Positions 28,568-50,942 of a DNA stretch of 64,000 bases are shown one piece after another; position 1 is the first letter of the stretch, and the number at the start of each line of letters is the position of its first letter. The position numbers were made by a program, and so were the translations under genes. The notes beneath the pieces were generated by a model. It was not told the DNA's origin. It made no database searches and saw only the letters and a program-made list of their open reading frames with translations. This stretch comes from Candidatus Marinacidobacterales bacterium. GTDB taxonomy: Bacteria; Acidobacteriota; Vicinamibacteria; Marinacidobacterales; DATDRI01. The stretch spans positions 1,888,001 to 1,952,000 of the forward strand of contig CBDCNP010000002.1 in the NCBI GenBank assembly GCA_965219415.1. Reading direction: 5' to 3'.

Positions 28568-29662
28568 CTACTCGATCGCGATGGGAGTCGGGACCTTGGT
28601 AACGGCGCAAGAGCGACATATCGATTCGCCCTCGGAACCAGGTTTGTCCCAAGTTCGCTCCCGGTGCGCTTCGCGGATGCGATCGAAGTTTGGACTCGCC
28701 CAGGATTCGCGGACGCTTAGACGAGGGCTCGCGGCTCCTTCGACCACCGGGCCGCCGTCGATCTCCAGGGTGAATCCCTGACAACATGGCATGGTGTGCT
28801 TGCCGTCCCAGGTCACCACCATCCGGCGAAAGGAATCCGTACATTGGAACTCTTCGGCGTTCAGCTGGCGCCACTGCGCCGCTTTCCAATGATGCTCCGA
28901 GCCGGCCGGAAAGTAGCACTCGCTTACCGACATCCAGTCGACGCCCATCTTGTCCTTCCAGAATTCTTCCATGCGCCCGCTATCCACGGCTTGCGCGTTC
29001 AAGTGGGTCCGGACGACAGAGGCGCGGATTCGACAATCGGGTGCCGCCTTGCCGCTTGCCCGAGTTTCGACCGCTCGGCGGACCGAGTTCAGCAGAACTT
29101 CCCAATCCCCACCCACCCTCTGGCGCCGGTAGCCCTCTTCATCACAGGCGTCGACGGAGAACATTAGATCCGTAATCCCCGCTTCGACGATCTCGGCGAA
29201 CAGATCCGGGTTCTTGCGACCGAGGCCGTTTCCGTTGGAGTTCATCATGATGTCCGGGAACTCCAACTCGACGGCGCGCGCTACGAAGTCCGCGATCTCG
29301 GGGTGCAGCGACGGCTCACCCCGGTAGTTCAGCTTGATGGAGCTCACTCCGATGTCCGCGCATTGGCGAAGCAAAACGTTGTACAGGTGGGGGTCCATGT
29401 AGCCGCGCATGTAGGTGTGATCCTCGAACCCTTGCGTCCGGATGTGCTCATGAGTCCATATCTGGCAAAAACCCTCCGGGTCTTCCTCCGAGCTGCCGCA
29501 GCGAAGGTCACACACCGCGACCGATTCCAGATCGACGTGCACGGGGTGGTCGGACGCATCGAGCTCCTCTCCCCGGCGGTCCCACTCCAACCGGTACTGC
29601 TCGTAGCGTTGGCTCCGCGTGGGGGCCTCTCCCAGGACTCTAAAGGTAGGGTCTTTACTCAT
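28568..29662 (-). CDS. Radical SAM / SPASM(twitch)-domain protein
   Basis: 'CDLRC..(10)..C', 'LNYRGEPSLHP', 'NSNG', 'FSVDA', and C-terminal 'C...F...W....PCC...C..C'. Confidence 0.85.
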   Translation of the reverse strand: MSKDPTFRVLGEAPTRSQRYEQYRLEWDRRGEELDASDHPVHVDLESVAVCDLRCGSSEEDPEGFCQIWTHEHIRTQGFEDHTYMRGYMDPHLYNVLLRQCADIGVSSIKLNYRGEPSLHPEIADFVARAVELEFPDIMMNSNGNGLGRKNPDLFAEIVEAGITDLMFSVDACDEEGYRRQRVGGDWEVLLNSVRRAVETRASGKAAPDCRIRASVVRTHLNAQAVDSGRMEEFWKDKMGVDWMSVSECYFPAGSEHHWKAAQWRQLNAEEFQCTDSFRRMVVTWDGKHTMPCCQGFTLEIDGGPVVEGAASPRLSVRESWASPNFDRIREAHRERTWDKPGSEGESICRSCAVTKVPTPIAIE

Positions 29663-29667
29663 AGCGA

Positions 29668-31040
29668 GAGCTCTTGTCAATAGGTGTGTAAAAAAGTTCA
29701 GGCAGCAGCAACCTTCGACGACTCCGTTACCCTGTCTCCATCTTCAAATCGAACGCCCAGGTGAACCTCTCGCATCAGCTCCGGTGCGTTGAGCCGGCGA
29801 AAATTCTTCTCCGCAACCAGAAGCAGTTTGAAGATTGTCGCAGTGGCGGACTCGACTTTCTTGAACCTTTTGGCCGCATCCGTTCTCAATCTCAGTGCAG
29901 CGAACGGTGACTCCACGACGTTGCTCGTGCGAAGGTGTTGCCAGTGAGGCTTGGGAAAGGAATAGAAGCTGACCATCCGCTCCCAGTCCTCGTCGAGCAC
30001 GTGCGCGGCCCCCGGAAGACCCTTGCGCAAGCACCAATCCTGGAACTTGGCCTTCTTCGTCTCGCACTCCTGCAGGCTGGTGGGGTAGGGGATCGCCGTC
30101 AACAGCGGCTTGGCCTGCGCCTGGTCCCTTTTCGGAATCCGGTCCAGTACGTTGAGGATTCGGTGGTTCCAGCACCGCTGCTCCTCAGCTTCTGGAAATA
30201 CGTTTCGGGTCGCGGCCCAGATGCCGAGATGACCGTCACCGATCACCAAACGGGGACATCTCAGACCGCGCTTCTTCAGTCTCCGTAGCAGCGACGACCA
30301 TGACGCTTCGGATTCTCGATGCCCGGCCTCCAGCGTCAGGACGATTTTCGTCCCGTCGGACAGGCCACCAACCGCAACTAGCACCGCCGCCTTGTCCTTC
30401 TCAAGGCCGGCCTTCACGTACACGCCATCTATCCACAGGGACACGAGCTTGAGTTCGTCCAGTGGGCGAGCTAGCCACTGCTCGTACTCTCCCTGCCATT
30501 TTCTGTTTCAGCCGCGACACCGTGCTGGGAGAAAGTGGAGCGTCCTCCCCTAGAAGCCCGCGGAGCGCCAAATCGAAATCTCCGTGAGCTAATCCATGCA
30601 GGTACAGCTCCGGAATCAACTCGCTCACCGTTTCGCTCCGACGCTTGAACAGCGGAAGCACTCGACTTTCGAACCTCTCCTCCACGTCCCGTACTCTCGG
30701 CCGGCGAACCGTCACTGTGCCCACGCTCATCGTCAGCTTCCGAGGCTTACCGTATCCATTTCGATAGCCCGCCGTTGTGTCCACGGGCTTCCGTCTCTCC
30801 GATTTCTCACGCCCGAGAAGCTCCGTGACTTCGGCTACCATCAGCTCCTGCACCCAATCCTGGATCTCGAGCCTCGCCCACTTCTCCAGCGACTCCCAAG
30901 CCACCCTTGACGAGCTCCGTCGTCTTGTGGTCTTTTCCTTCATGGCGGTGTCTCCTTCCGTTGGCCCCTTCACGCCGTGTTTCGTGACGCGGAAGGTTAC
31001 TCCGCCTTTACTTTATTTCCACACCTTCTGAGGGTAGCTC
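29668..31040 (-). mobile_element. IS256-family element (type C)
   Basis: Inverted repeats GAGCTCTTGTCAATAGGTGTG / CACACCTTCTGAGGGTAGCTC. 8-bp TSD CATAGCGA at 29660-29667 and 31041-31048. Confidence 0.93.
29698..30943 (-). pseudogene. IS256 transposase with a frameshift near 30500
   Basis: 'YRNGYGKPR', 'LYLHGLA.GDF', 'WIDGVY', 'IGDGHLG', 'QRCWNH', 'LRTSNVVES'. Confidence 0.9.
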
Positions 31041-34870: not shown

Positions 34871-35371
34871 ACGGCGACCGCTGACGTGGTCATGTATGAC
34901 GAGGAGTTCAACCAGATAAAGGTCATCATCAGTAAGCTCCGAGTCGACGCCAACGCAAAACTCGTTTTCCTGGTTGACAAGAACGGGCAACAGATCGCCG
35001 CCCATGGCGACGTCGAGAACCTGGACACTACCTCTCTAGCTTCTCTAACCGCAGGTAACGTCGCGGCCACCGATGCCCTCGCCAAGCTCATTGGTGAGAG
35101 GGAGTTCTCGATCCTCTTCCACGAGGGTGAGCGGGACAATATTCACATCTCGATCGTGGGGCTTCGGGTCATTCTGGTAGTCATATTCGATGAACGTTCA
35201 TCCCTCGGATTGGTCAGACTTCGCGTAAAGAAGGCTTCCAAGGAGTTAAACGACATCTTCGACCGGATCATGAAGAAAGTCGAAACAGAGAAGAGTACCT
35301 ACGGCGCCGGCGTGGACTCGCCCTTTGCGGAAATCACGGACGAGGATATCGATAGCCTCTTTAGCGAATAA
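34871..35371 (+). CDS. mglB: Roadblock/LC7 GTPase-activating protein MglB (start codon uncertain, 34871-34892)
   Basis: 'VMYDEEF', 'FLVDKNGQ', 'TSLASLTAGNVAAT', 'SSLGLVRLRVKK', 'FAEITDEDIDSLF'. Confidence 0.92.
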   Translation, partial: TATADVVMYDEEFNQIKVIISKLRVDANAKLVFLVDKNGQQIAAHGDVENLDTTSLASLTAGNVAATDALAKLIGEREFSILFHEGERDNIHISIVGLRVILVVIFDERSSLGLVRLRVKKASKELNDIFDRIMKKVETEKSTYGAGVDSPFAEITDEDIDSLFSE

Positions 35372-35392
35372 TCTGAAGCTGGGAACGAACGG

Positions 35393-35989
35393 ATGACCTT
35401 CATCAACTACGCCTCACGGGAGATCAACTGCAAGATCGTCTACTACGGGCCGGGGCTATGCGGGAAGACCACCAACTTGCAGTTCATCTACGATAAGACG
35501 AACCCCAGTGCCAAGGGTAAGCTCATCTCTCTCGCCACCGAGACGGACCGGACTTTGTTTTTCGATTTTCTACCACTCGAGCTCGGAAACGTCCGCGGCT
35601 TCAAGACGCGCTTTCATTTGTACACGGTTCCGGGACAGGTATTCTACGACGCCTCGCGGAAGCTCATCCTCAAGGGCGTGGACGGTGTCATATTCGTCGC
35701 CGACTCCCAGCGCGAGCGCATGGATGCTAATATCGAAAGCCTTCAGAATCTCGACGCGAATCTCAAATCGCAAGGTTACGATCTTCAGAGCATTCCCTAC
35801 GTCCTCCAGCTCAACAAACGGGATCTGCCGAGCGCGGTTCCAGTCGAAGAGATGAAGAAAGCGCTCTCCGTCAGGACAGAGCCGGTCTTGGAGGCCATCG
35901 CCAAATCCGGGAACGGGGTGGGTGTCTTCGATACGTTGAAAGCGGTGGCCAAGCTGGTGCTACAGGACCTGACGAAATCAGGGACCTAA
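35393..35989 (+). CDS. mglA: Small Ras-like GTPase MglA
   Basis: '[27 protein letters not shown]', 'DRTLFFDF', 'YTVPGQ', 'NKRD'. Confidence 0.96.
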
Positions 35990-36043: not shown

Positions 36044-36118
36044 TCCCCGGTAGCTCAATGGTGGAGCGGCGGACTGTTAATCCGATGGCTGTAGGTTCGA
36101 GTCCTACCCGGGGAGCCA
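36044..36118 (+). tRNA. tRNA-Asn (anticodon GTT)
   Basis: TCCCCGGTAGCTCAATGG...GGACT-GTT-AATCC...GGTTCGAGTCC...GCCA. TGnTATACT extended -10 upstream. Confidence 0.96.
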
Positions 36119-37430: not shown

Positions 37431-37528
37431 AAGAATGGGCTGGGGATTTCGACCGACTTGCTTAGTCGGTACCGCGCTGGAAGTCCCGCCGCAGTTTAGA
37501 CCCCAGCTTGCCGAGGTCCTGCCGCAAG

Positions 37529-37942
37529 TTACTCACCAGGTCTTCGAACTCGGGGGGTCACGGCAAGTACTGCTCCTGGCACGAAGTCCGAGGAGTCCAG
37601 GAGATCCTGGAGCCTCGTCGCTTCTCCACCGCTGAGATGCGTGAATTGGACACCTTGAAGGACGGCGCTCGGAACACCCTGCGGGGAGTCGAGCTCGGGG
37701 CCGCTCCAAACGATGCGAGCCGGGGTCTTGAGCAGGTCCCCATGGCGGTAAAAGCTCATGCGTAGCATGACGATCCGGCCTTGCCCCACCGTGGTATCGG
37801 TCATCACGCACGCACCCGTCTCCGAGATGTTGGTGACGACACCGTACGCCAGATCGGTCTCCCCAACGTGTACGGCAACGGTAACCGGCTTGCGTGGCGT
37901 CAGGCGGCGGCTGGCACGATTCTGAATGAGGTTGCCTTCCAT
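37529..37942 (-). CDS. PilZ-domain protein
   Basis: RxxxR ('RLTPR') and (D/N)xSxxG ('NISETG'), plus 'ARIVWS' and 'GVQF'. Confidence 0.85.
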   Translation of the reverse strand: MEGNLIQNRASRRLTPRKPVTVAVHVGETDLAYGVVTNISETGACVMTDTTVGQGRIVMLRMSFYRHGDLLKTPARIVWSGPELDSPQGVPSAVLQGVQFTHLSGGEATRLQDLLDSSDFVPGAVLAVTPRVRRPGE

Positions 37943-38074
37943 CGTACTCCACTCCTCTCCCAACGGAGGGGGTGGCCTTTAGTGGTCGGGATTCTAGCCC
38001 AATTTTTATCGCTAATCGCAGTTGTTGTCAAGAGTTGCGGGGATGCGCGGAGGCGGGGAAATCGTGAGGTCGGT

Positions 38075-39091
38075 TTACGTCGCTCGGGCCGCAGCGAGGG
38101 CCCTAAGGAGGAGGAGATCGCCCTCGGATCGGGGGTTACAAATGAACCCTTCGCGAGTGTGGGCGGTCATGAATCCTCTCTGTTCCAGGATGAGCGCTTG
38201 GTGAGCCACGTACTCCTCGATGTTGGTACGGGGGAAAAACTGCGGCTCGTCGTCGACGATGGGGCCCTTGAATCGTGGCCAGCCGAAACTGAGCTCCGGG
38301 AAGTCCCGTCGCGGATAGTGGATGTTTCCCCACGAGCACTGTGGATAGATGTACCGATCGTACGTGGGCTCGGGCTCCTGAGCGGATGAACACGAGATGA
38401 TGACCTGCGGCCACCTCTCTCGTACTTCCTTCACGACGCGATTCACCCGGTCGGGCTCCCAACCCTTCCCCTGGATGTCGACTTCGTTGCCCAGCCTGAA
38501 AACGATGTTCGGTAGATCGTTGAGTCGCTCCATCACTTCGAGGACGTAGTTCTCGGTCGCTTCAAACCTCCGAAATAGTGGACCGCCATTCTGTTCGAAC
38601 TGTGTCACTAGGATGACGTACTCCATGACCGCACGCCGTGGCACGAAGGCTTGGCGGACGGTCTCCCTCACTGTCCGAACGTGCTCTCGAGAAGGATGTC
38701 GTCCAGTATCATCCACGGCGCGGTGCTTCGGCACGCGATCCAAAAGCGGATCGCTCGGCCAAAACGACGTATCGGAGAAAACCCGGAACACGACGATTCC
38801 TTCGGCGATCCCGCGCTCGACCCAGGCGATTCGGTCTTCCGAGGAGCGACCCAACAAACCGAAGCTCGTATAACCGATGTAGTCGAAGTTGAATGTCTTA
38901 CCAATGACCGCGGGCCGAAAGCCCTGGTTCTTCTGGGCGTACTCTTCACTCCGAAGAAGCGACTCCCTCATGTCGGCTTCGCTCATCCCAGCGTTCATTT
39001 CGATGTTGTAGAAATTACGCCCATCGGGATCGACTGCCCGTTGCAAAATGTCGCGGTAGCCGTCCCGGATGATGGAAGTGAAGTCGGGCAT
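38075..39091 (-). CDS. MPDF/DUF4214-like module fused to a clan GH-A-like TIM barrel
   Basis: Shared N-terminal module, then 'VFRVF', 'LGNE', 'IHYPR', 'PIVDDEP'. Confidence 0.75.
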   Translation of the reverse strand: MPDFTSIIRDGYRDILQRAVDPDGRNFYNIEMNAGMSEADMRESLLRSEEYAQKNQGFRPAVIGKTFNFDYIGYTSFGLLGRSSEDRIAWVERGIAEGIVVFRVFSDTSFWPSDPLLDRVPKHRAVDDTGRHPSREHVRTVRETVRQAFVPRRAVMEYVILVTQFEQNGGPLFRRFEATENYVLEVMERLNDLPNIVFRLGNEVDIQGKGWEPDRVNRVVKEVRERWPQVIISCSSAQEPEPTYDRYIYPQCSWGNIHYPRRDFPELSFGWPRFKGPIVDDEPQFFPRTNIEEYVAHQALILEQRGFMTAHTREGFICNPRSEGDLLLLRALAAARAT

Positions 39092-39094
39092 TCC

Positions 39095-40171
39095 TTAGAC
39101 CTGAATTGCAGCGGCCACGGGTTTCAGGACCGATTGCAGGAATTGGTAGACCGGTTTGGGTGAAAGGTCTTCGTTGACGATCCCGAACTTAGTGTTGCCC
39201 TGGTTCGGTCCGTCCCAATAGTGGAAGAAGAAAATCCGCTGTACCCAATCACTATTCCGCAGCGACGCGATGACCTCCTGGTAATACTCCACTTGATCTC
39301 CCTCTTTCGTCTCTCGCCCGGTCTCGGTGATCCAGAACGGCTTGTCCGATACTCCTAGATCCTCCATCAGGGTTCTCAAAGAAGGTCGGAAGGCCCGATC
39401 CTCTTCGAGCTCGCGAATCACGTCTCGCCCGCGGCTCGGATAGTTGTGATGGTTGATGATGTCGATGAGGTTCTTGGCCTTCATCGCCTCTTCGAACCAA
39501 TCCCTCCAATCTCCTAAGTTGGCGAGGCCGGGCGAAACGACCTGGCTAGCCGGATGGAGCTCCTTCGCCAATCGAGCCGCCGGCTGCAAGATCTGAGTCC
39601 GATACTGGCTCCTGGAGCCACGCCAAAACTGGTCGAGGTTGGGCTCGTTCCAGAATTGCCAGAATCGAACCTTGTCTCGATATCGGGTAACCGCCTCCCT
39701 GACGATGGTGGTCCAATAGCTCGTCTGGGCCGGAGGATCGCTGATCTGTGGGTTCTGCGGGTTGGACGAAGCCCAGGGTGGCGTGAAGGAGAGAGTGGCC
39801 AAGGGCTCGACGTTCAGTCTGAACGCTTGGTCGACAACGCGATCCGTATCCTCCCACCTGAAGACCCCTTGTTGCGGCTCCATGCGAAACCAATCGAAGT
39901 CGATTCGAATCCACTGCATTCCAAGGTTCCTTCCGATGTCGCGCAGCATGGTATTCGTAGGAATGTGGGCGTTGAGCCCGAGCCGCGTGGGCATGCCTGG
40001 ATCGGGATTGTTGGTCGCGTACTCCGGGCTTCGGAGTAGTGACTCGCGCATCTCGGCCTCCGACATCAACTGATTCATCAGGCCGTTGTAACTGGCGAGT
40101 CCAGTCGGATCAGGGTTTCGTTCTAGGATCTCCTGATAGGCTTCGGTAATGATGGGCGAAAAATCGGGCAT
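39095..40171 (-). CDS. MPDF/DUF4214-like module fused to a GH5/GH39-like glycoside hydrolase
   Basis: 'WIRIDFDW..EPQQG.F.W', 'TPPWA', 'WNEPN', 'NHHNY', 'PFWITETG', 'FGIV...PKP'. Confidence 0.85.
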   Translation of the reverse strand: MPDFSPIITEAYQEILERNPDPTGLASYNGLMNQLMSEAEMRESLLRSPEYATNNPDPGMPTRLGLNAHIPTNTMLRDIGRNLGMQWIRIDFDWFRMEPQQGVFRWEDTDRVVDQAFRLNVEPLATLSFTPPWASSNPQNPQISDPPAQTSYWTTIVREAVTRYRDKVRFWQFWNEPNLDQFWRGSRSQYRTQILQPAARLAKELHPASQVVSPGLANLGDWRDWFEEAMKAKNLIDIINHHNYPSRGRDVIRELEEDRAFRPSLRTLMEDLGVSDKPFWITETGRETKEGDQVEYYQEVIASLRNSDWVQRIFFFHYWDGPNQGNTKFGIVNEDLSPKPVYQFLQSVLKPVAAAIQV

Positions 40172-40202
40172 GAAGCTAGGCCTCCGGCTGGTGCGTAAGA
40201 AC

Positions 40203-40484
40203 TTATCTACTCTTACCGCGGGCCTTGGTTTTCTTCTTGCCGCGTGCCGACTTGGACTTCTTGCGCTTCGAAGATTGAGCCTTAACCGAAGCCTTCGCCG
40301 CTTGGGCAGCTTGATCAGGATTTTTGATCGCGTACTCCTCGCTTCTCAGAAGCGTCTCGCGCATCACCGCCTCGGTCATCCCTTGATTCATAAGCTGGTC
40401 GAAGTTTTCCTGGCCGCCTGGATCGGCCGGACGCGCGAGTATGCGCATGTACGCTAGATTGATGATTCGTCCAAAATCTGGCAT
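40203..40484 (-). CDS. Stand-alone MPDF/DUF4214-like module with a Lys/Ala/Ser-rich tail
   Basis: GAGGTG RBS. Module homologous to the N-termini of the two downstream genes. Tail 'SSKRKKSKSARGKKKTKARGKSR'. Confidence 0.85.
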   Translation of the reverse strand: MPDFGRIINLAYMRILARPADPGGQENFDQLMNQGMTEAVMRETLLRSEEYAIKNPDQAAQAAKASVKAQSSKRKKSKSARGKKKTKARGKSR

Positions 40485-40670
40485 CGCTCACCTCTTATGA
40501 GAGCACTCGGTACTAGCCTGAGAGTCTGCTCTCTGGCCTCCCCCGGGGACCCAACAATATTAGCTTACCGATCGCGCCACCGTGAGAACGATCACACTCG
40601 TTGACCAGGATTTTCACAAGGAATATATTGGGGCTTGACTAGGGGGAGCAACTTTTCAGGGTGATCGAAT

Positions 40671-41859
40671 ATGACTTATCGATGGATGTTGCTCCCTAAC
40701 ATACTGCCGCTTTGTTTCTTACTCGCCTGCCAGATTGGCGAAAACGCTGAGCCTGCCGATTTCGACGAGTTGCTCGCTAGCTTCCATCGGCTCTCGTCGC
40801 AAGAACGCCAGGAGCGGGTCGCCGACTACATCACGACCAACGGACCCACTCCGGTGATCGAAGGCAACGAAGCGATTTTCGTTGCCCAGGGCGACCCCTC
40901 GACACCTCCACGGATCCTCGGCGACTTCAACGCTTGGTGAAGAAACGACGACGGGCCTGTCGCCTCGGCAGGTAACATGACGCCGATCGAGGGAACCGAC
41001 TGGTATTACCTAAGGATGGAATTCCGTCCGGACGCGCGCATCGAGTATTCGGTCGTCCGGGGTGAGGCCGAAGAGCTGGATCCACACAACCCCTCGACGA
41101 CCGCGGGCGGCGAGCACCAGCTATCGGAGTTGGCGATGCCAGTCTACGACCCCCACCGGAGTTTTCCGAGGATACTTCGGTCCCCAAGGGCCCAGTGAAG
41201 GAGAGTATTTTCAAAAGCCGGATCTTGAGCAACGAGCGCAAGATCCTCATCTACTTGCCGAGCGGTTATGAAAAAAGTGATCGCCGCTACCCAAGCATCT
41301 ATATTGGGGATGGAGCCATCTATGCGGAACGCGGTTTTCCCGAGCTCATCGACTACGCCATCGCAGAGGGTCTCTGCCGACCACTCATTGCGGTTTTCGT
41401 AGATCCCGTCGTCCGCCGCGAAGAGTACCGGATGCACGAGGGCTATCGCCGGTTCATGACTGAAGAGCTGGTGCCCTTCATCGACGAAAGTTACCGGACC
41501 TTGACCGAGCCGAGCGAAAGGGCAACGTTGGGGGCCTTCGCGCGGAGGACTGGCGGCCGCGGACTTGGCCTATTCTCATCCGGAGATGTTCGGCTTTGCC
41601 GCGGCTTTGAACTCCCGCGACCAGGCCCACGAATTTCAACGAAGTCATTGCTTCGAATCCCGCCCGGCCGGTCCGGTTCTTCCTGATGGTCGGTCTCTAC
41701 GACACCCGCTGGGCCAACGACGGCTTCGAGCTTCGCGACGCTTTGGTCGAGGGAGGCTACGATTTCGCTTACGTGGAGGTCCCCGAGGGACACAACCTCA
41801 AGGCGCGGGGAGCCCAGTTGGACGAGATTTTCGCCGATTTTTTTCCGCCTGAACGTTGA
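40671..41859 (+). pseudogene. Enterochelin-esterase-like lipoprotein with an in-frame stop and frameshifts
   Basis: Lipobox LLAC, 'GDFNAW', 'LDPHNP', 'IYLPSGY', 'EELVPFIDESY', 'EVPEGHN'. Confidence 0.75.
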
Positions 41860-41959: not shown

Positions 41960-43072
41960 ATGCATAAGAAAAGCAAGTATCTCCATGGACCCGAGATCAG
42001 CTCGCGCTCCATCGATCCGAATTGGTCCGTGGCGCAGCTCATCGACGATAGCTTCAACGCTTATAACGCCGGACGCCTCCGCGAATCTTGCCAGCTCTTC
42101 GTCGATCGCGTCCTCGACGACGATGTCACGGTAGGGCTCTCAGTCTCCGGAGCGCTCACGCCGGCCGGTCTCGGGCCAAGCGCGCTCATTCCGCTCATGG
42201 AGGCGGGCTTCGTAGATTGGATCATTTCTACCGGTGCCAATCTCTACCACGACACGCACTATGGCATCGGCTACGACATGCACCGTGGGACCCCCTTTGT
42301 CGACGACGTCAAGGTCTTCGAGGACCGAGTGGTTCGGATCTACGACATCTTCTTCAAGTTCGAAGACCTTCTATCTCTGGACAAGTATTATCAACGCCTG
42401 GTCTGCGCCGATGAATTTCAGAAGGAGATGTCGACCGCCGAGTTCCACTACCTTTGCGGCAAGTACGTGGGCGAACGGGAAAAGGCGCTGGGATTGGAGA
42501 ACCGCTCTTTTCTAGCCGCCGCGCATCGCTTGGGAGTCCCCATTTACACATCGTCACCCGGGGACAGTGCCATCGGTATGAACGTCGCCTCCATGGCGCT
42601 CAACGACAACAAGCTCAAGCTCGACATCTGTGCCGACGTCAACGAAACAACGGCCATCGTGTTCGACGCCAAGTTCAACGGCCGCAAGGCGGCCGCGGTC
42701 ATGCTCGGAGGCGGATCTCCGAAGAACTTCCTACTCCAAACCGAGCCCCAGATTCAGGAGATCCTCGGCTTCGACGAAAGGGGCTTCGACTACTTCATGC
42801 AGTTCACCGACGCGCGTCCGGACACCGGAGGCCTTTCCGGCGCCACCCCCGGTGAGGCCGTCAGCTGGGGAAAGGTCGACCCCGAGATGCTGCCGCATGC
42901 CATCGTCTCGTACGTCGATTCAACGATCGCTCTCCCGCTTCTTACTTCCTACGCTCTGGAGCGTCACAAACCTAGAAAGCTGAAGCGCCTCTACGATCAC
43001 CGCGCCGAGTTCGTCGACGCTCTAACCAAGGAATACCATAAGCGGGTCCCCGAGGTTCAGCCGCTCAAGTAA
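41960..43072 (+). CDS. Deoxyhypusine synthase-like protein (homospermidine synthesis type)
   Basis: '[10 protein letters not shown]', 'STGANLYHD', 'GGGSPKNF', '[16 protein letters not shown]'. Confidence 0.92.
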
Positions 43073-48576: not shown

Positions 48577-50942
48577 CTATTTGGCGGCTACTGCGCAGAT
48601 CGTGCGTGGGCGCGGGGCGAGGGCTTCGCATGCCAATCGGCGACGACGCGCTCCGCCGGCTTTCCCCGCGGCGTCCAAACGTCGCCTCCCGAACCGGCGT
48701 TCGCGGGGTCGGAGAACCATTTCCACCAATAGAATCCATAGAACCAGGGGCGCGACCAATAGGTCTCGAACGTAACCCGGTAGAGAAGTGCCTGCCGTTC
48801 CCGAGATCGGTCGGGCTGCCCTCGTGTTTAGCGGTTCCCGCCGCGCGAACGGAAGGAAAGCCGACTTCGGTGAAGACCACCGGCTGGCCGACGCGAAGCG
48901 CAACCGCTTCTATCCGCTCCGCTACGCGCTCCGCTGCAACGCGGAGTTGCTCTTCGTCGGCGTCTGCACCCTTCGCTAGCGGGTAGTAAGTTATCGAGTC
49001 CAGCGACATCGAGCGCATCCCAAAAGGTAAGGCTCTCGAATTCCTCGTACCAGTTGGCGGCGTAAGTGAGAGGGCCCTGATAGACCCGCCTCACTTTCGC
49101 GATGATCTCGCGGATTTTCTCCGGTCGCTCGAGGGCCGGGTGAGTCAGCTCGGTGCCCACGCAGAAGAGGTCCACCCGCAGCTCTTCAGCCAAGAGCGCG
49201 TACGACAGGATCCAGCTTTCGTAGCTTTCGAACCAAGCATTCCACTCCTGGTCGGTCTCGAAATCGATGTCGCTCGGCCAGTCTTGGTAGCTGAGCCAGA
49301 TCTGCGGCTTCATCATGACCCGCAATCCCAGTCGCCTCGCGTCCGCGGTGGCCACCCGAATCGACTCGTCGCTCTCGGTGCTGATCGAGCTTCCGGCGCG
49401 ACGGATCGCGGTTCGGTGGACCGGTGAAGTAAAGCCGTAAGGCACCAGTGCCACAGCGTTGGCCGCTAGGTCTCGCAGTCCCTTGAGAGATTCCAACGAA
49501 CGGGCGGTCGGATACCCACTCTCGCGACTGTTCGTGTAGGCATAGTTGAAACCCTTGTGAAAGACTTTGGCACTGGAATAAGACCGACGCGAAAGCTCTG
49601 CTTTTTCCGCGAAACCCTCGGCGTCGGAGGAGGCCTCACGTTCAAGCTGACGTTGCCACCTCTTTTCCCAAGTTTGCAGGCGGGGCTCCCCGTGCCCCGT
49701 GTAGTGACGACGAAATTCGTCGCTCGTCATCTGCTTTCGAAGAAAAGAGACCCAGCTCGCCGCGTAGGCTCGATAGACCGGCTCGGGAAAGGCCAGCGAC
49801 AGACGGTCATCGGTCGCCGCGAGCCGCCGGAGCTCGGGAGGGAACCCGAGGTAGGCGAATCGAGCCGCCTCCTCCTCGAACGGCAGTCCGGCCAACATCC
49901 GCGAGTACCCGGCCCGCAGATACGGCTCGACCGGAGCTCCCAACAAACGGTCCAAGAGCAACCCCACTTCTTCGGCTCCGTCCAGGCCACTGCGCTCCGC
50001 AGAGTAGATTGCGTGGACCGTTAGCATGCTCGAATCGACATGGGACCGAGCCATCGAATCGACCAACCGGCCCTTGGTCTCGTGGGTCGGATAGAGATAG
50101 AAACGGATCGATAGCTCCGGCAGGTCGCCCAATTCCTGAGCCGCCCGGTCGAGCCGGGCCCCTAGGGTCTCGAGGATCGCCTGATGCTTCGATTCTGCGA
50201 AGCTCGCCTCCGGGTAGTAAAGCTCCAAGCGATCGCCAGCCGACCGCTGTAGAGTCTCCGCCCACGCTTCTTGCTCCGCCAGAATGTCGACGTCGGAGGC
50301 CGAGTCTATGCGGCCTTCGGACAGTCGCCCGTAGCGAATGGCGCGACGGCCTTCGAGAATCGAATAGTCCAGTCGCCCGAACCAAAAGCCTCGCCGCGAC
50401 AGAGGGGATTCGTGGGTTGCTCCAGCAACGAGAACCACCGGACGCTCCGGATTCCACGGTGAAAGCGTCAGGAGTCGAAGTACGTGCTCGACTTTTTGGT
50501 AAGATCGTCCGCCAAACGAGAAGCCTTTCGAAAAACGAACCGGCGTTTCCTCAACGATCTCACGGACCCATCGATTTGCTTCGGGTCGACCAATTAAGAT
50601 GATGGCAGCTTCCTTGCGATCGGAGGAAGAGAGGTTGTGATCAGCGATCACTTTCGCTGGACGGCCCCAAGAGTGATAACGCTCCGCGAACCGCTCGGCC
50701 TCAGCACGATACTGGTCCGACCACTTCGGGGCAGCCGTCCCGTAAACGATGAGAAGGGGGGCTCCCTCGCGAAGGGAACGCACCGCACGGCGGCGTTTCA
50801 CTTCCCATGATTCGCCCTCGGCAGTGAGCGAATGGACGCCGAGATGGAGGAGCACCGCTCCACCGAAGAGAACGGTCACGGCCAGGAATAAAGACCAGAC
50901 TCGGTGCACAGAGCTACTATAGCCCACGGTGGGCCTACGCAT
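48577..50942 (-). pseudogene. Multidomain protein with a C-terminal GH113-like domain, frameshifted near 48990 and 48800
   Basis: 'MMKPQIW', 'CVGTEL', 'TYAANW', 'YYPL', 'VFTEVGFPS'. Confidence 0.78.

What the first reader, a model, noticed from the sequence alone, without database searches (positions are those of the whole stretch)
38075..40484. Three-gene operon sharing an N-terminal 'MPDF' module: basic-tailed stand-alone protein plus two different glycoside hydrolase-like cargoes
Seen: three tightly linked minus-strand genes (gaps 31 and 3 nt) all start with the same ~56-aa module: MPDFGRIINLAYMRILARPADPGG...MTEAVMRETLLRSEEYAIKN / MPDFSPIITEAYQEILERNPDPTG...MSEAEMRESLLRSPEYATNN / MPDFTSIIRDGYRDILQRAVDPDG...MSEADMRESLLRSEEYAQKN. 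Codons for conserved residues differ synonymously, so conservation is at the protein level. One protein is module plus a Lys-rich tail. The others carry unrelated barrels with intact-looking catalytic Glu pairs (WNEPN/TETG and GNE/DDEP). None has a Sec or Tat signal. Knowledge: the Y..IL.R..D..G...S.EY pattern resembles DUF4214, often found in surface/S-layer proteins. Inference: the module is a docking, export or self-assembly tag that gathers hydrolases on a scaffold, which the basic protein anchors to a polyanion. I know of no described system with this layout.
Basis: partly seen in the sequence, partly recalled or inferred. Interest (0 to 1): 0.82.

Follow-up and report, generated by a model that had tools for sequence, protein, structure and literature searches.

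The report
Tagged glycanase cassette with cationic partner
Three neighbouring genes of an uncultured acidobacterium encode two sugar-chain-cutting enzymes and a small, strongly positively charged protein that all start with the same 56-residue helical tag, a conserved but uncharacterised arrangement that probably brings the enzymes and their partner to the same place.

Summary
Three minus-strand ORFs (A 40203-40484, B 39095-40171, C 38075-39091) each start with a 56-aa module, with 29 of 56 residues invariant and 20 of those using different codons. The module is one DUF4214 unit, equal to half a phycobilisome-linker-type domain.

- B is a PslG-like GH39 enzyme.
- C is an unnamed clan GH-A (beta/alpha)8 barrel, closest to GH140 and GH5. 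Both have invariant catalytic Glu pairs.
- A is the module plus a disordered tail with pI 12.
- None has a signal peptide or TM segment.

The cassette is conserved in Vicinamibacteria: 18 of 401 class genomes matched, in three families. A-type genes sit beside the tagged enzymes in all 14 genomes with intact, assessable loci. The cargo is exchangeable (A-B-C, A-B-D, A-B, A-D, enzyme-with-C-terminal-tag + A), and two read-through fusions occur.

A-type modules form their own clade. Relatives elsewhere are mostly tandem arrays in secreted proteins.

My best reading, at moderate confidence, is that the tag is a shared handle. A-class and enzyme-class half-domains pair, which gives the glycanases A's polycationic anchor on an anionic glycan.

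The main rival is independent glycan or surface binding, as for Psh. A complex prediction gave no verdict, and I found no paper on this layout.

It is a new variant of a known kind, of moderate interest.

The parts
40203..40484 (-). Gene A: a 93-aa non-catalytic partner made of the 56-aa DUF4214-type module plus a disordered K/R/S/A-rich tail.
   Evidence: ORF. Pfam DUF4214 E 0.0027, below the gathering score. Ten orthologues aligned, with A-type signature residues R14 and P19 and basic tails of variable length. In the AF2 model the module has pLDDT 81-87 and the tail is below 50. A Shine-Dalgarno-like AGAGGTGAG lies 5 nt upstream of the ATG.
40317..40484 (-). A-class module (residues 1-56), acidic, pI 4.8.
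   Evidence: A-type modules from 11 genomes form one starred clade with support 97/91. Foldseek's best matches are almost all phycobilisome-linker domains, with 46-55 aligned columns and rmsd 1.3-2.7 A, but E >= 1.
40206..40316 (-). Polycationic low-complexity tail of A (residues 57-93: 11 K, 4 R, no E, pI 12.0).
   Evidence: The tail's K+R fraction is 0.35-0.52 in A-type orthologues of 10 other genomes, while its sequence and length vary. It is predicted disordered.
39095..40171 (-). Gene B: module plus a PslG-like GH39 (beta/alpha)8 glycanase.
   Evidence: Pfam Glyco_hydro_39 2.5e-11, Glyco_hydro_cc 1.3e-9, DUF4214 3.1e-5 (24.4 bits, gathering score 23.2). The best solved relative is PslG (5bx9/4zn2), E 2.4e-14 over residues 81-352. 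At least 136 homologue clusters at E <= 1e-10 cover the full length, including the module.
40004..40171 (-). Enzyme-class module of B (residues 1-56, pI 4.1).
   Evidence: M1 and P2 are invariant in 27 B homologues.
39638..39652 (-). B residues W174-N178 (WNEPN), holding the presumed acid/base E176 (codon 39644-39646).
   Evidence: W174, N175, E176, P177 and N178 are invariant in 27 sequences. The motif aligns residue for residue with WNEPN of PslG. Coordinates.
39317..39328 (-). B residues T282-G285 (TETG), holding the presumed nucleophile E283 (codon 39323-39325).
   Evidence: T282, E283, T284 and G285 are invariant in 27 sequences. The motif aligns with TEWG of PslG. Coordinates.
38075..39091 (-). 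Gene C: module plus a (beta/alpha)8 barrel of clan GH-A type that belongs to no Pfam family.
   Evidence: The only Pfam hit is DUF4214, E 0.0011. AF2 model: pLDDT 85.1, pTM 0.80. Foldseek: GH5 mannanase 3ziz 1.9e-7, 4n0r, GH140 8t9w. VIA-align: Z 23.1 to GH140 8t9w (rmsd 2.8, 264 aligned), 22.2 to 4n0r, 21.8 to GH5 1qnp. The family is narrow: 35 clusters at E <= 1e-3 among 5.8 billion.
38924..39091 (-). Enzyme-class module of C (residues 1-56, pI 4.5).
   Evidence: The model shows four helices (5-16, 22-33, 38-46, 49-54) at pLDDT 81-96.
38483..38491 (-). C residues G201-E203 (GNE), holding the presumed acid/base E203, at the end of predicted strand 196-201.
   Evidence: G201, N202 and E203 are invariant in 22 sequences. 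Strand position. Coordinates.
38243..38251 (-). C residues D281-P283 (DEP of VDDEP), holding the presumed nucleophile E282, just after predicted strand 278-280.
   Evidence: D281, E282 and P283 are invariant in 22 sequences. Strand position. Coordinates.
38002..38031 (-). Promoter-like site (TTGACA-18-AAAAAT) between C and the downstream PilZ gene. It suggests that A-B-C is a transcription unit separate from PilZ.
   Evidence: This is a consensus scan only: 3 sites found against 1.4 +/- 1.1 in shuffles. It is not evidence of function.

Best explanation
This is a conserved, modular glycan-degrading cassette of Vicinamibacteria (Acidobacteriota). B is a PslG-like GH39 retaining glycanase. C is a glycanase of an unnamed clan GH-A family. 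A is a small non-catalytic partner. Each begins, straight after the start codon, with a single DUF4214 unit, which equals one half of a phycobilisome-linker-type helical domain.

I read this unit as a shared handle that brings the three proteins together. The A-class half-domain pairs with the enzyme-class half-domains, in the way the two halves of a linker domain or neighbouring units of a DUF4214 array pack together. Each enzyme thereby borrows A's disordered polycationic tail (pI 12) as an anchor to an anionic polymer. The most likely polymer is an acidic or sulfated exopolysaccharide or envelope glycan that the enzymes cut.

Shown here: the gene structures, the module homology, the enzyme folds and catalytic motifs, the absence of signal peptides, conservation of the cassette, exchange of cargo, and the separate A-class lineage. 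Inferred: module-to-module pairing, polyanion binding by the tail, the substrate, and where in or on the cell this happens. How leaderless proteins would reach an extracellular glycan is not explained.
For: 1. The module is a single half-domain. A profile of 16 modules hits ApcE linker repeats (7eyd 1.8e-5, 8imi 5.2e-5), with two motif copies per linker domain. The A model's best structural matches are linker domains, aligned over only 46-55 of their ~130 residues.
2. Elsewhere the unit usually comes in arrays. Of the best 150 of 13,231 representative hits, 143 have 2-14 stretches, and only 7 have one N-terminal copy.
3. A-type modules form one starred clade across 11 genomes, while enzyme modules do not group by genome. 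There are therefore two old module classes rather than recent copies.
4. An intact A-type gene lies next to a tagged enzyme in 14 genomes: G000, G001, G003, G006, G008, G014, G018, G022, G028, G030, G034, G038, G444, G504. Of the 18 genomes matched, 2 more are degenerate (G002, G487) and 2 sit on contigs too short to judge (G007, G032).
5. The flanking genes differ between families, so the cassette moves as a unit.
6. Cargo is exchanged while A is kept: A-B-C (families f1, f2), A-B-D (G444, and G487 with a broken A), A-D (G504), A-B (G028, G030), and a 429-aa enzyme with a C-terminal module plus A (G022, G008).
7. Two natural read-through fusions exist: A-B (P0306) and module-GH39-A-type module-basic tail (P0307).
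8. The modules are acidic (pI 4.1-4.8) and the tail is strongly basic.
9. B resembles the exopolysaccharide hydrolase PslG. In three f2 genomes a GH140-like protein, one of them with CBM9, follows C.
10. The A-B-C frames carry no indels in contigs of four runs from four studies.
Against: There is no direct evidence for pairing. Published work on DUF4214 proteins points to secreted, surface-attached proteins, and in one case to binding of LPS O-antigen rather than protein docking. None of the three proteins has a signal peptide or TM segment, so access to an extracellular glycan is unexplained. An acidic module is not an obvious partner for another acidic module. C sits without a neighbouring A in G030 (L040). 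The two fusion proteins are each a single sequence on a single contig and could be sequencing or gene-calling artefacts. B is split by frame changes in 5 of 12 order-level genomes (G003, G008, G014, G018, G034), so the cassette may be dispensable or decaying in some lineages. In the partial list of strain variants, C shows 6 non-synonymous against 3 synonymous changes.
Confidence: 0.38

Rival explanations
1. The module is an independent glycan- or surface-binding module, used like a CBM. Each DUF4214 unit binds the same cell-envelope or matrix polysaccharide on its own. B and C are then substrate-targeted glycanases, and A is a small non-catalytic glycan-binding protein whose cationic tail adds affinity for acidic groups, for example by cross-linking, shielding or competing. 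No module-to-module contact is needed.
For: Psh, an RTX-DUF4214 protein of P. putida, is reported to be secreted by a T1SS and to bind LPS O-antigen (preprint 10.64898/2026.09.02.748959, passages read). DUF4214 is called a likely surface-anchoring domain in segmented filamentous bacteria (PMC12780176, introduction passage). DUF4214 proteins are found extracellularly or in the secretome. Every identified cargo of this tag is a glycanase-type barrel: GH39, the C family, a D family with a weak GH5 hit at E 0.003, and an E family carrying the Collagen_bind_2 accessory domain of apiosidase-like enzymes. The 29 invariant residues shared by paralogues with different cargo fit a common ligand.
Against: There is no signal peptide, whereas tandem-repeat DUF4214 proteins of the same order and elsewhere do start with signal-like hydrophobic segments (the G005 313-aa ORF; P0047 and P0098). 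This reading does not by itself explain why a dedicated A-class lineage is always adjacent. No glycan binding by a single unit has been shown.
Confidence: 0.3
2. The module is a leaderless export or targeting tag and A is a cognate small partner. The N-terminal module would be recognised by an unidentified secretion or packaging route, with A acting as co-substrate or chaperone. This would work like the small helical partners of T7SS LXG/WXG substrates or the adaptors of T6SS effectors.
For: The module always starts at residue 1, with M-P-[DN]-F nearly invariant: M1 and P2 are invariant in 27 B homologues, as are M1, D3 and F4 in 10 A homologues. There is no Sec or Tat signal on enzymes whose relatives act outside the cytoplasm. 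The tag is shared by at least five different cargo types.
Against: No secretion genes recur in the flanks examined. In G022 and G008 the module is at the C-terminus of a 429-aa enzyme, and in P0037 three modules stand in tandem. Neither fits a strict N-terminal signal. No such pathway is known in Acidobacteriota (from my own knowledge).
Confidence: 0.12
3. This is a cytoplasmic enzyme set. B and C trim imported oligosaccharides or an intracellular glycan, and A tethers or organises them on an intracellular polyanion (nucleoid, RNA, polyphosphate). This would work like the histone-like tails of granule-associated proteins.
For: There are no export signals or TM segments. The K/R/S/A-rich disordered tail is of a type common in nucleic-acid-binding proteins (the comparison is recalled, not tested). 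Leaderless GH39 and GH10 enzymes exist; for example, intracellular xylanase IXT6 appears among B's weak PDB hits.
Against: B's closest solved relative acts on an exopolysaccharide. DUF4214 proteins studied so far are extracellular. In f2 the adjacent GH140-like protein carries CBM9, which is typical of secreted enzymes.
Confidence: 0.12
4. There is no joint function. The shared module is only a leftover of domain shuffling among neighbouring paralogues, and A is a truncated remnant.
For: Frame breaks in B occur in several relatives.
Against: A is an old orthologous lineage with its own signature residues and a compositionally conserved tail across three families. Synonymous sites between the paralogous modules are saturated while 29 of 56 residues stay invariant. 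The ESM Atlas holds a 251-member cluster of ~94-aa look-alikes (this may be A's own cluster).
Confidence: 0.05

Closest known systems
DUF4214 (Pfam PF13946) proteins, including Psh of Pseudomonas putida (RTX-DUF4214)
   Same: The same helical unit: Pfam positions 24-71 of 72, with B above the gathering score. DUF4214 is also found fused to enzymes; the Psh preprint lists peroxidases and peptidases. The proposed role in attachment to a surface glycan could apply here as well.
   Different: Here there is one unit only, at the extreme N-terminus. There are no RTX repeats, no signal peptide and no T1SS neighbours. The cargoes are glycoside hydrolases, and a dedicated small basic-tailed partner gene is present. 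Fusions to glycoside hydrolases are not mentioned in the passages I read.
Phycobilisome linker domain (Pfam PF00427; ApcE REP domains, CpcC/CpcG)
   Same: There is sequence similarity to the repeat motif (AY..IL.R...S.EY), with ApcE 7eyd at 1.8e-5. The linker domain also gives the best structural matches to the module. Linker domains are protein-protein assembly modules (established knowledge).
   Different: The module covers only about half of a linker domain. It is acidic rather than basic. The organism is not photosynthetic as far as the window shows, and PF00427 itself was not among the Pfam hits.
PslG (GH39) of Pseudomonas aeruginosa
   Same: It is B's best solved relative, E 2.4e-14 over residues 81-352, and both catalytic motifs align. 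Some B homologues are auto-named PslG by JGI.
   Different: Identity is low. PslG has an N-terminal membrane anchor and lies in the psl biosynthesis operon (recalled). B instead has the DUF4214 module, and no polysaccharide-synthesis genes were found next to it.
GH140 apiosidase / GH5 mannanases / BVU_0362 (clan GH-A)
   Same: C's barrel superposes with Z 23.1 (8t9w), 22.2 (4n0r) and 21.8 (1qnp) over ~260-290 residues. It has an NE motif after strand 4 and a Glu after strand 7.
   Different: Structural identity is only 10-14%. There is no Pfam hit for the barrel, and profile-versus-PDB gives only E 0.02 to GH5 endoglucanases. C fits no defined family.
Cellulosome dockerin-cohesin systems
   Same: The logic is the same: one short tag on several different glycoside hydrolases, plus a non-catalytic partner that could anchor them.
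   Different: The folds are unrelated. Cellulosomal proteins have signal peptides. Here the partner carries the same kind of module as the enzymes rather than a distinct receptor. No binding has been shown.

Membership tests
DUF4214 (PF13946) | Match to the Pfam HMM at or above the gathering score (23.2 bits). | tested here: met
   B scores 24.4 bits (E 3.1e-5). C scores 19.4 bits and A 18.2 bits, both below the cut-off, but they align to the same positions 24-71 and to B's module at 57-59% identity. The own-genome scan gives 27, 22.2 and 19.2 bits.
DUF4214 (PF13946) | The usual architecture of tandem arrays in secreted or surface proteins. | tested here: not met
   There is a single unit at residue 1 and no signal peptide. 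Of the best 150 representative hits, 143 carry 2-14 units. This is a departure in architecture, not in homology.
Phycobilisome linker domain (PF00427) | A full ~130-aa two-repeat domain matching PF00427. | tested here: not met
   PF00427 is not among the Pfam hits at E <= 0.1. The module aligns to one repeat only. It is related at superfamily level but is not a member.
GH39 (PslG-like) | Match to the Glyco_hydro_39 HMM above the gathering score, plus a (beta/alpha)8 catalytic core. | tested here: met
   43.5 bits against a gathering score of 26 (E 2.5e-11). Glyco_hydro_cc scores 38.5 bits against 21. PslG E 2.4e-14. B was not folded here.
GH39 (PslG-like) | Acid/base Glu in the NEP motif and nucleophile Glu in the TE.G motif. 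| tested here: met
   E176 and E283 are invariant in 27 homologues and align with the same motifs of PslG. That these are PslG's catalytic residues is recalled, not taken from a call.
GH39 (PslG-like) | Hydrolytic activity, and on which glycan. | not testable with these tools
   This needs an enzyme assay.
Clan GH-A (C protein) | A (beta/alpha)8 barrel with the acid/base after strand 4 and the nucleophile after strand 7. | tested here: met
   Model pLDDT 85.1. Z 21-23 to GH140 and GH5 structures. N202-E203 follow strand 196-201 and E282 follows strand 278-280; all are invariant in 22 sequences. Strand numbering within the barrel was not checked residue by residue.
GH5 or GH140 (C protein) | Sequence-level membership via the Pfam Cellulase or Apiosidase HMM. 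| tested here: not met
   There is no Pfam hit for the barrel at E <= 0.1. Profile against the PDB gives only E 0.02 to GH5. C is not filed in either family.
Cohesin-dockerin-like assembly (works-like only) | Physical binding between the tag and the partner. | not testable with these tools
   This needs pull-down, SEC-MALS or ITC with purified A, B and C. See Tried and rejected for the one prediction attempted.

The most novel reading that the evidence does not exclude
The single DUF4214 half-domain is a new kind of split-domain docking tag. A-class and enzyme-class halves complement each other to form a complete linker-like domain, building exchangeable leaderless glycanase complexes on a polycationic adaptor. 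This would be an acidobacterial counterpart of the cohesin-dockerin principle, possibly coupled to an unknown leaderless export or surface-delivery route. It would also assign a first molecular function, protein-protein assembly by half-domain complementation, to a domain family with more than 13,000 representative clusters.
Probability: 0.22. Interest if true: 0.78.

Novelty: new variant of a known kind. Interest (0 to 1): 0.5.

Why it matters
DUF4214 is a very large domain family with no settled function: 13,231 representative clusters at E <= 1e-3. This cassette presents the unit in its simplest form. There is one copy per protein, on three co-encoded proteins, with exchangeable glycanase cargo and a dedicated partner. 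That makes the question of whether the unit binds protein or glycan directly testable with three small recombinant proteins.

The finding also defines an unnamed clan GH-A family (C) and a leaderless PslG-like GH39 lineage in Vicinamibacteria, an abundant but almost uncultured group. This bears on how these bacteria process polysaccharides or remodel their matrix.

Tried and rejected
- Complex prediction of the three modules (residues 1-60 of B, C and A, each with its own alignment, partner = A) scored 0.29 and 0.22 against a mark of 0.32. The tool's verdict is no answer, so it counts neither for nor against binding.
- RNA evidence: no RNA holder was listed among 24 runs, so nothing can be said on expression.
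- Rfam: there was no match in 37900-40800 at E <= 1, and no riboswitch upstream of A. Window-wide, only SRP RNA and four tRNAs were found.
- The phage collection gave no tblastn match to C at E <= 1e-3. An ESM Atlas lead to a viral cluster was therefore not followed further.
- NCBIfam gave nothing meaningful for A, B or C.
- The search for related loci with the 16-module alignment failed because no stretch was conserved enough. The C alignment was used instead and gave 7 loci.
- Concerted evolution of the three modules within a genome was considered and rejected, because modules group by type and not by genome.
- A double-glycine leader reading of the module's D-P-G-G was considered and dropped. 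B has D-P-T-G and C has D-P-D-G.
- Co-occurrence with secretion systems across relatives was considered but not run. Cassette-positive families have 5-10 Mb genomes and the cassette-negative family has 3-4 Mb genomes, so any such count would be confounded by descent.
- Foldseek of the A model gave no match at E <= 0.001. The linker-domain matches listed are therefore leads, which gain weight only together with the sequence profile result.
Full report
**1. Observation**

The ORF list and the sequence show three minus-strand ORFs exactly as described.
- A: 40203-40484, 93 aa.
- B: 39095-40171, 358 aa.
- C: 38075-39091, 338 aa.

The gaps are 31 nt (A-B) and 3 nt (B-C). Shine-Dalgarno-like purine runs precede A and B, and C starts just after B's TAA stop.

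The first 56 residues of the three proteins are 57-59% identical pairwise, and 29 of 56 positions are invariant. Of those 29 residues, 20 use at least two different codons. Third-position identity at identical residues is 0.39-0.55. These are therefore old paralogous modules held by selection on the protein, not recent DNA copies.

A loose motif for the module occurs three times in the six-frame translation of the window. A profile of the module finds exactly these three copies in the 8.05-Mb genome.

None of the proteins has a hydrophobic N-terminal or TM-like stretch. The modules are acidic (pI 4.1-4.8), and A's 37-residue tail has 11 K, 4 R, no E and pI 12.0.

**2. What the module is**

Pfam places all three modules on positions 24-71 of the 72-position DUF4214 model. 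B scores above the gathering score (24.4 bits); C (19.4) and A (18.2) score below it.

A profile of 16 modules from this and related genomes hits phycobilisome core-membrane linker ApcE in the PDB (7eyd 1.8e-5, 8imi 5.2e-5). It also hits isolated linker domains weakly (3osj and 2l06, about 0.05). The printed alignments show two motif copies about 60 residues apart within each linker domain.

The AF2 model of A has four short helices at pLDDT 81-87, followed by a low-confidence helix and a disordered tail. Its Foldseek hit list is almost entirely phycobilisome-linker domains, aligned over 46-55 columns at rmsd 1.3-2.7 A. All have E >= 1, so on their own they are only leads.

Taken together, the module is one DUF4214 unit, equal to about half of a linker-type domain.

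Against 1.84 billion representatives the profile finds 13,231 proteins at E <= 1e-3. Of the best 150, 143 carry 2-14 units and only 7 carry one unit at residues 1-56. The single N-terminal copy is therefore the unusual feature.

**3. The cargoes**

B matches Glyco_hydro_39 (2.5e-11) and Glyco_hydro_cc (1.3e-9). Its best solved relative is the exopolysaccharide hydrolase PslG (2.4e-14, residues 81-352), and WNEPN and TE.G align in both. N175, E176 and E283 are invariant in 27 homologues.

C has no Pfam family for its barrel. Its AF2 model (pLDDT 85.1, pTM 0.80) is a (beta/alpha)8 barrel.
- Foldseek gives GH5 mannanase 3ziz at 1.9e-7, plus 4n0r and GH140 8t9w.
- VIA-align gives Z 23.1 (8t9w, rmsd 2.8, 264 aligned), 22.2 (4n0r) and 21.8 (GH5 1qnp). 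These values are effectively tied.
- N202-E203 and D281-E282-P283 are invariant in 22 sequences and sit at the ends of predicted strands.

C is thus a clan GH-A enzyme of an undefined family. The family is small, with 35 clusters at E <= 1e-3 among 5.8 billion, all 'hypothetical'.

B's family is larger, with at least 136 clusters at E <= 1e-10. Coverage is 97-100% for most, so they include the module. They are named hypothetical, 'PslG' or 'DUF4214 domain-containing', and come from Acidobacteria or Vicinamibacteria MAGs.

**4. Organism and distribution**

Record titles of related loci name Vicinamibacteria / 'Candidatus Marinacidobacterales' MAGs. No paper holds that order name.

Among 41 relatives, the module profile hits 18 genomes at E <= 1e-3: family f1 6/7, f2 11/17, f3 0/16. 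A few of these are generic DUF4214 repeat proteins.

With the A-protein profile at E <= 1e-15, 18 of 401 class genomes match, G000 included. The family counts without G000 are f1 5/7, f2 9/19 and f7 3/59, and no other family sampled has a match.

In an even sample of the phylum, 7 of 401 genomes match at E <= 1e-8. All six that are not the window's own genome have only weak hits (1e-9 to 1e-12), most as tandem units inside 261-363-aa frames.

**5. Synteny**

The genus-mate G001 has the same context: deoxyhypusine synthase, esterase, A, B, C, PilZ, HAD. G003 keeps A-B-C between DHS and HAD. In family f2 the flanking genes are different, so the cassette travels as a unit.

An intact A-type gene (74-114 aa, tail K+R fraction 0.35-0.52 where measured) lies next to a tagged enzyme in 14 genomes. 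Two more genomes have degenerate copies (G002, G487), and two have contigs too short to judge (G007, G032).

The cargo varies while A is kept:
- A-B-C in f1 and f2.
- A-B-D in G444, and in G487 with a broken A. D is a ~365-390-aa family with only a weak GH5 hit through its relative P0037.
- A-D in G504.
- A-B in G028 and G030, with C elsewhere in G030.
- A 429-aa enzyme with the module at its C-terminus, followed by A, in G022 and at a second locus of G008.

A further ~485-aa E family carries the tag plus the Collagen_bind_2 domain typical of apiosidase-like enzymes.

Two fusion proteins exist. P0306 reads through from A into B. In G018 and G034, A and B are in the same frame, separated by one stop codon and 6 nt (coordinates). 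P0307 has the layout module-GH39-A-type module-basic tail. Each is a single sequence on a single contig. P0037 carries three tandem modules before a D-type barrel.

In a tree of 39 modules, the 11 A-type modules, together with both modules of P0307, form one starred clade (97/91). Enzyme modules do not group by genome. There are only 56 columns, so deeper forks are unresolved.

**6. Neighbours and regulation**

In this window the cassette is followed by a PilZ-domain gene (37529-37963; Pfam 1.6e-11) and a HAD hydrolase. A promoter-like site lies between C and PilZ (consensus match only). No Rfam element lies upstream.

In three f2 genomes (G008, G014, G034) a GH140-like Apiosidase+DUF5060 protein follows C; the G008 copy also carries CBM9. 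Another f2 genome (G030) has a sulfatase-TPR protein nearby.

No secretion-system genes recur in the flanks examined.

**7. Integrity in other samples**

Contigs of four runs from four studies cover 37500-41800. Two are identical and may be the source. Two differ by substitutions only within A-B-C, with no indels. Of the listed substitutions, B has 13 synonymous and 6 non-synonymous, C has 3 and 6, and A has 0 and 1. The list is partial: 20 more were not shown.

B is interrupted by frame changes in G003, G008, G014 and G034. In G018 it is split about 19 kb apart, with a TIR gene and a Mu-type transposase in the region examined around the A and B-N-terminal part. I cannot tell assembly errors from real decay.

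**8. Literature**

A full-text search for DUF4214 found 10 papers, and I read passages in five.
- A 2026 preprint reports that Psh, an RTX-DUF4214 protein of P. putida, is exported by a T1SS and binds LPS O-antigen. It also reports DUF4214 fused to peroxidases, peptidases and Ig-like domains, and places the domain in the phycobilisome-linker CATH superfamily.
- A Halomonas evolution paper speculates about an anchored extracellular enzyme.
- A Dechloromonas preprint mentions an extracellular DUF4214 protein next to an S-layer gene.
- A segmented-filamentous-bacteria paper calls DUF4214 a likely surface-anchoring domain.
- A Serratia preprint finds DUF4214 proteins in spent medium.

No paper combined 'phycobilisome linker', 'glycoside hydrolase' and 'Acidobacteria'.

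**9. Interpretation**

Some points are firm. This is a real, conserved, modular cassette. It has two (elsewhere one to three) clan GH-A glycanases with intact catalytic pairs and a dedicated non-catalytic partner. All carry a single DUF4214 half-domain, and none has a classical export signal.

The mechanism is inferred. I favour heterotypic pairing of the A-class and enzyme-class half-domains, which would attach A's polycationic tail to the enzymes (confidence 0.38). The reasons are:
- the unit is a half-domain whose relatives normally occur in arrays;
- A is a separate, always-adjacent lineage;
- cargo is swapped around a constant A;
- fusions exist.

The main rival (0.30) is that each unit independently binds a surface or matrix glycan, as proposed for Psh. 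Lesser rivals are a leaderless export tag with a cognate partner (0.12), a cytoplasmic role with A tethering to an intracellular polyanion (0.12), and no joint function (0.05).

The one complex prediction gave no verdict and is not used either way. The missing signal peptide is an unsolved problem for every extracellular reading.

**10. Novelty and score**

The domain, the enzyme folds and the idea of DUF4214 as an attachment module are known. Three things appear undescribed in the searches made:
- the single N-terminal half-domain on leaderless glycanases;
- the dedicated basic-tailed partner;
- the exchangeable cargo.

I rate the finding as a new variant of a known kind, interest 0.5.

G007 is flagged unpublished. 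It contributes only one row to the tallies and one ORF, and no claim depends on it.

Noticed in passing
window 40671-41859 (+): The esterase gene divergent from A is broken into at least four ORFs in different frames (89, 73, 163 and 57 aa), whereas the G001 orthologue is one 395-aa ORF. Contigs of two other runs carry single-base indels at 41148, 41239, 41537 and 41610. The window's copy is therefore either a pseudogene or carries assembly errors.
   Followed up: partly
L026, L027, L028/L034, L029, L025 (G008, G014, G018, G034, G003): B is split by frame changes in five related genomes, all of them highly contiguous assemblies. In G018 its two halves lie about 19 kb apart, with a TIR-domain gene and a Mu-type transposase nearby. 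Whether this is real decay or assembly error is undecided.
   Followed up: partly
L026:265-5157, L027:8716-11124, L029:4004-5866: In three f2 genomes a large GH140-like protein (Apiosidase + DUF5060; one copy also has CBM9 and Collagen_bind_2) lies directly downstream of C. This suggests a larger glycan-degrading locus there.
   Followed up: no
window 37529-37963 (-): A PilZ-domain protein (Pfam 1.6e-11; NCBIfam TIGR02266 4.2e-8, below its cut-off) lies directly downstream of C and is conserved there in G001. This is a possible c-di-GMP link to matrix control. It is not found next to the cassette in f2.
   Followed up: partly
window 29698-30973 (-): A Mutator-family transposase is split into two overlapping ORFs (190 and 248 aa). 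It is probably a frameshifted or programmed-frameshift IS element, and it lies beside a radical SAM/SPASM gene (28568-29680).
   Followed up: no
window 34886-35989 (+): A Roadblock/LC7 protein is followed by a small Ras/Arf-like GTPase, a pair resembling MglB-MglA. It lies after RecR, and the tRNA at 36044-36115 follows it.
   Followed up: no
window 48828-50942 (-): A 704-aa protein has a GH113 domain (6.1e-35) in its C-terminal half and no family hit for its N-terminal ~460 residues.
   Followed up: no
window 41960-43072 (+): A deoxyhypusine synthase homologue (Pfam DS, 4.6e-65) is present in a bacterium and is conserved next to the cassette in G001 and G003.
   Followed up: no
P0037 (494 aa, metagenome protein): Three tandem MPDF-type modules precede a D-type barrel in one polypeptide with no signal peptide. 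This is a natural 'three tags on one chain' counterpart of the three-gene layout.
   Followed up: partly
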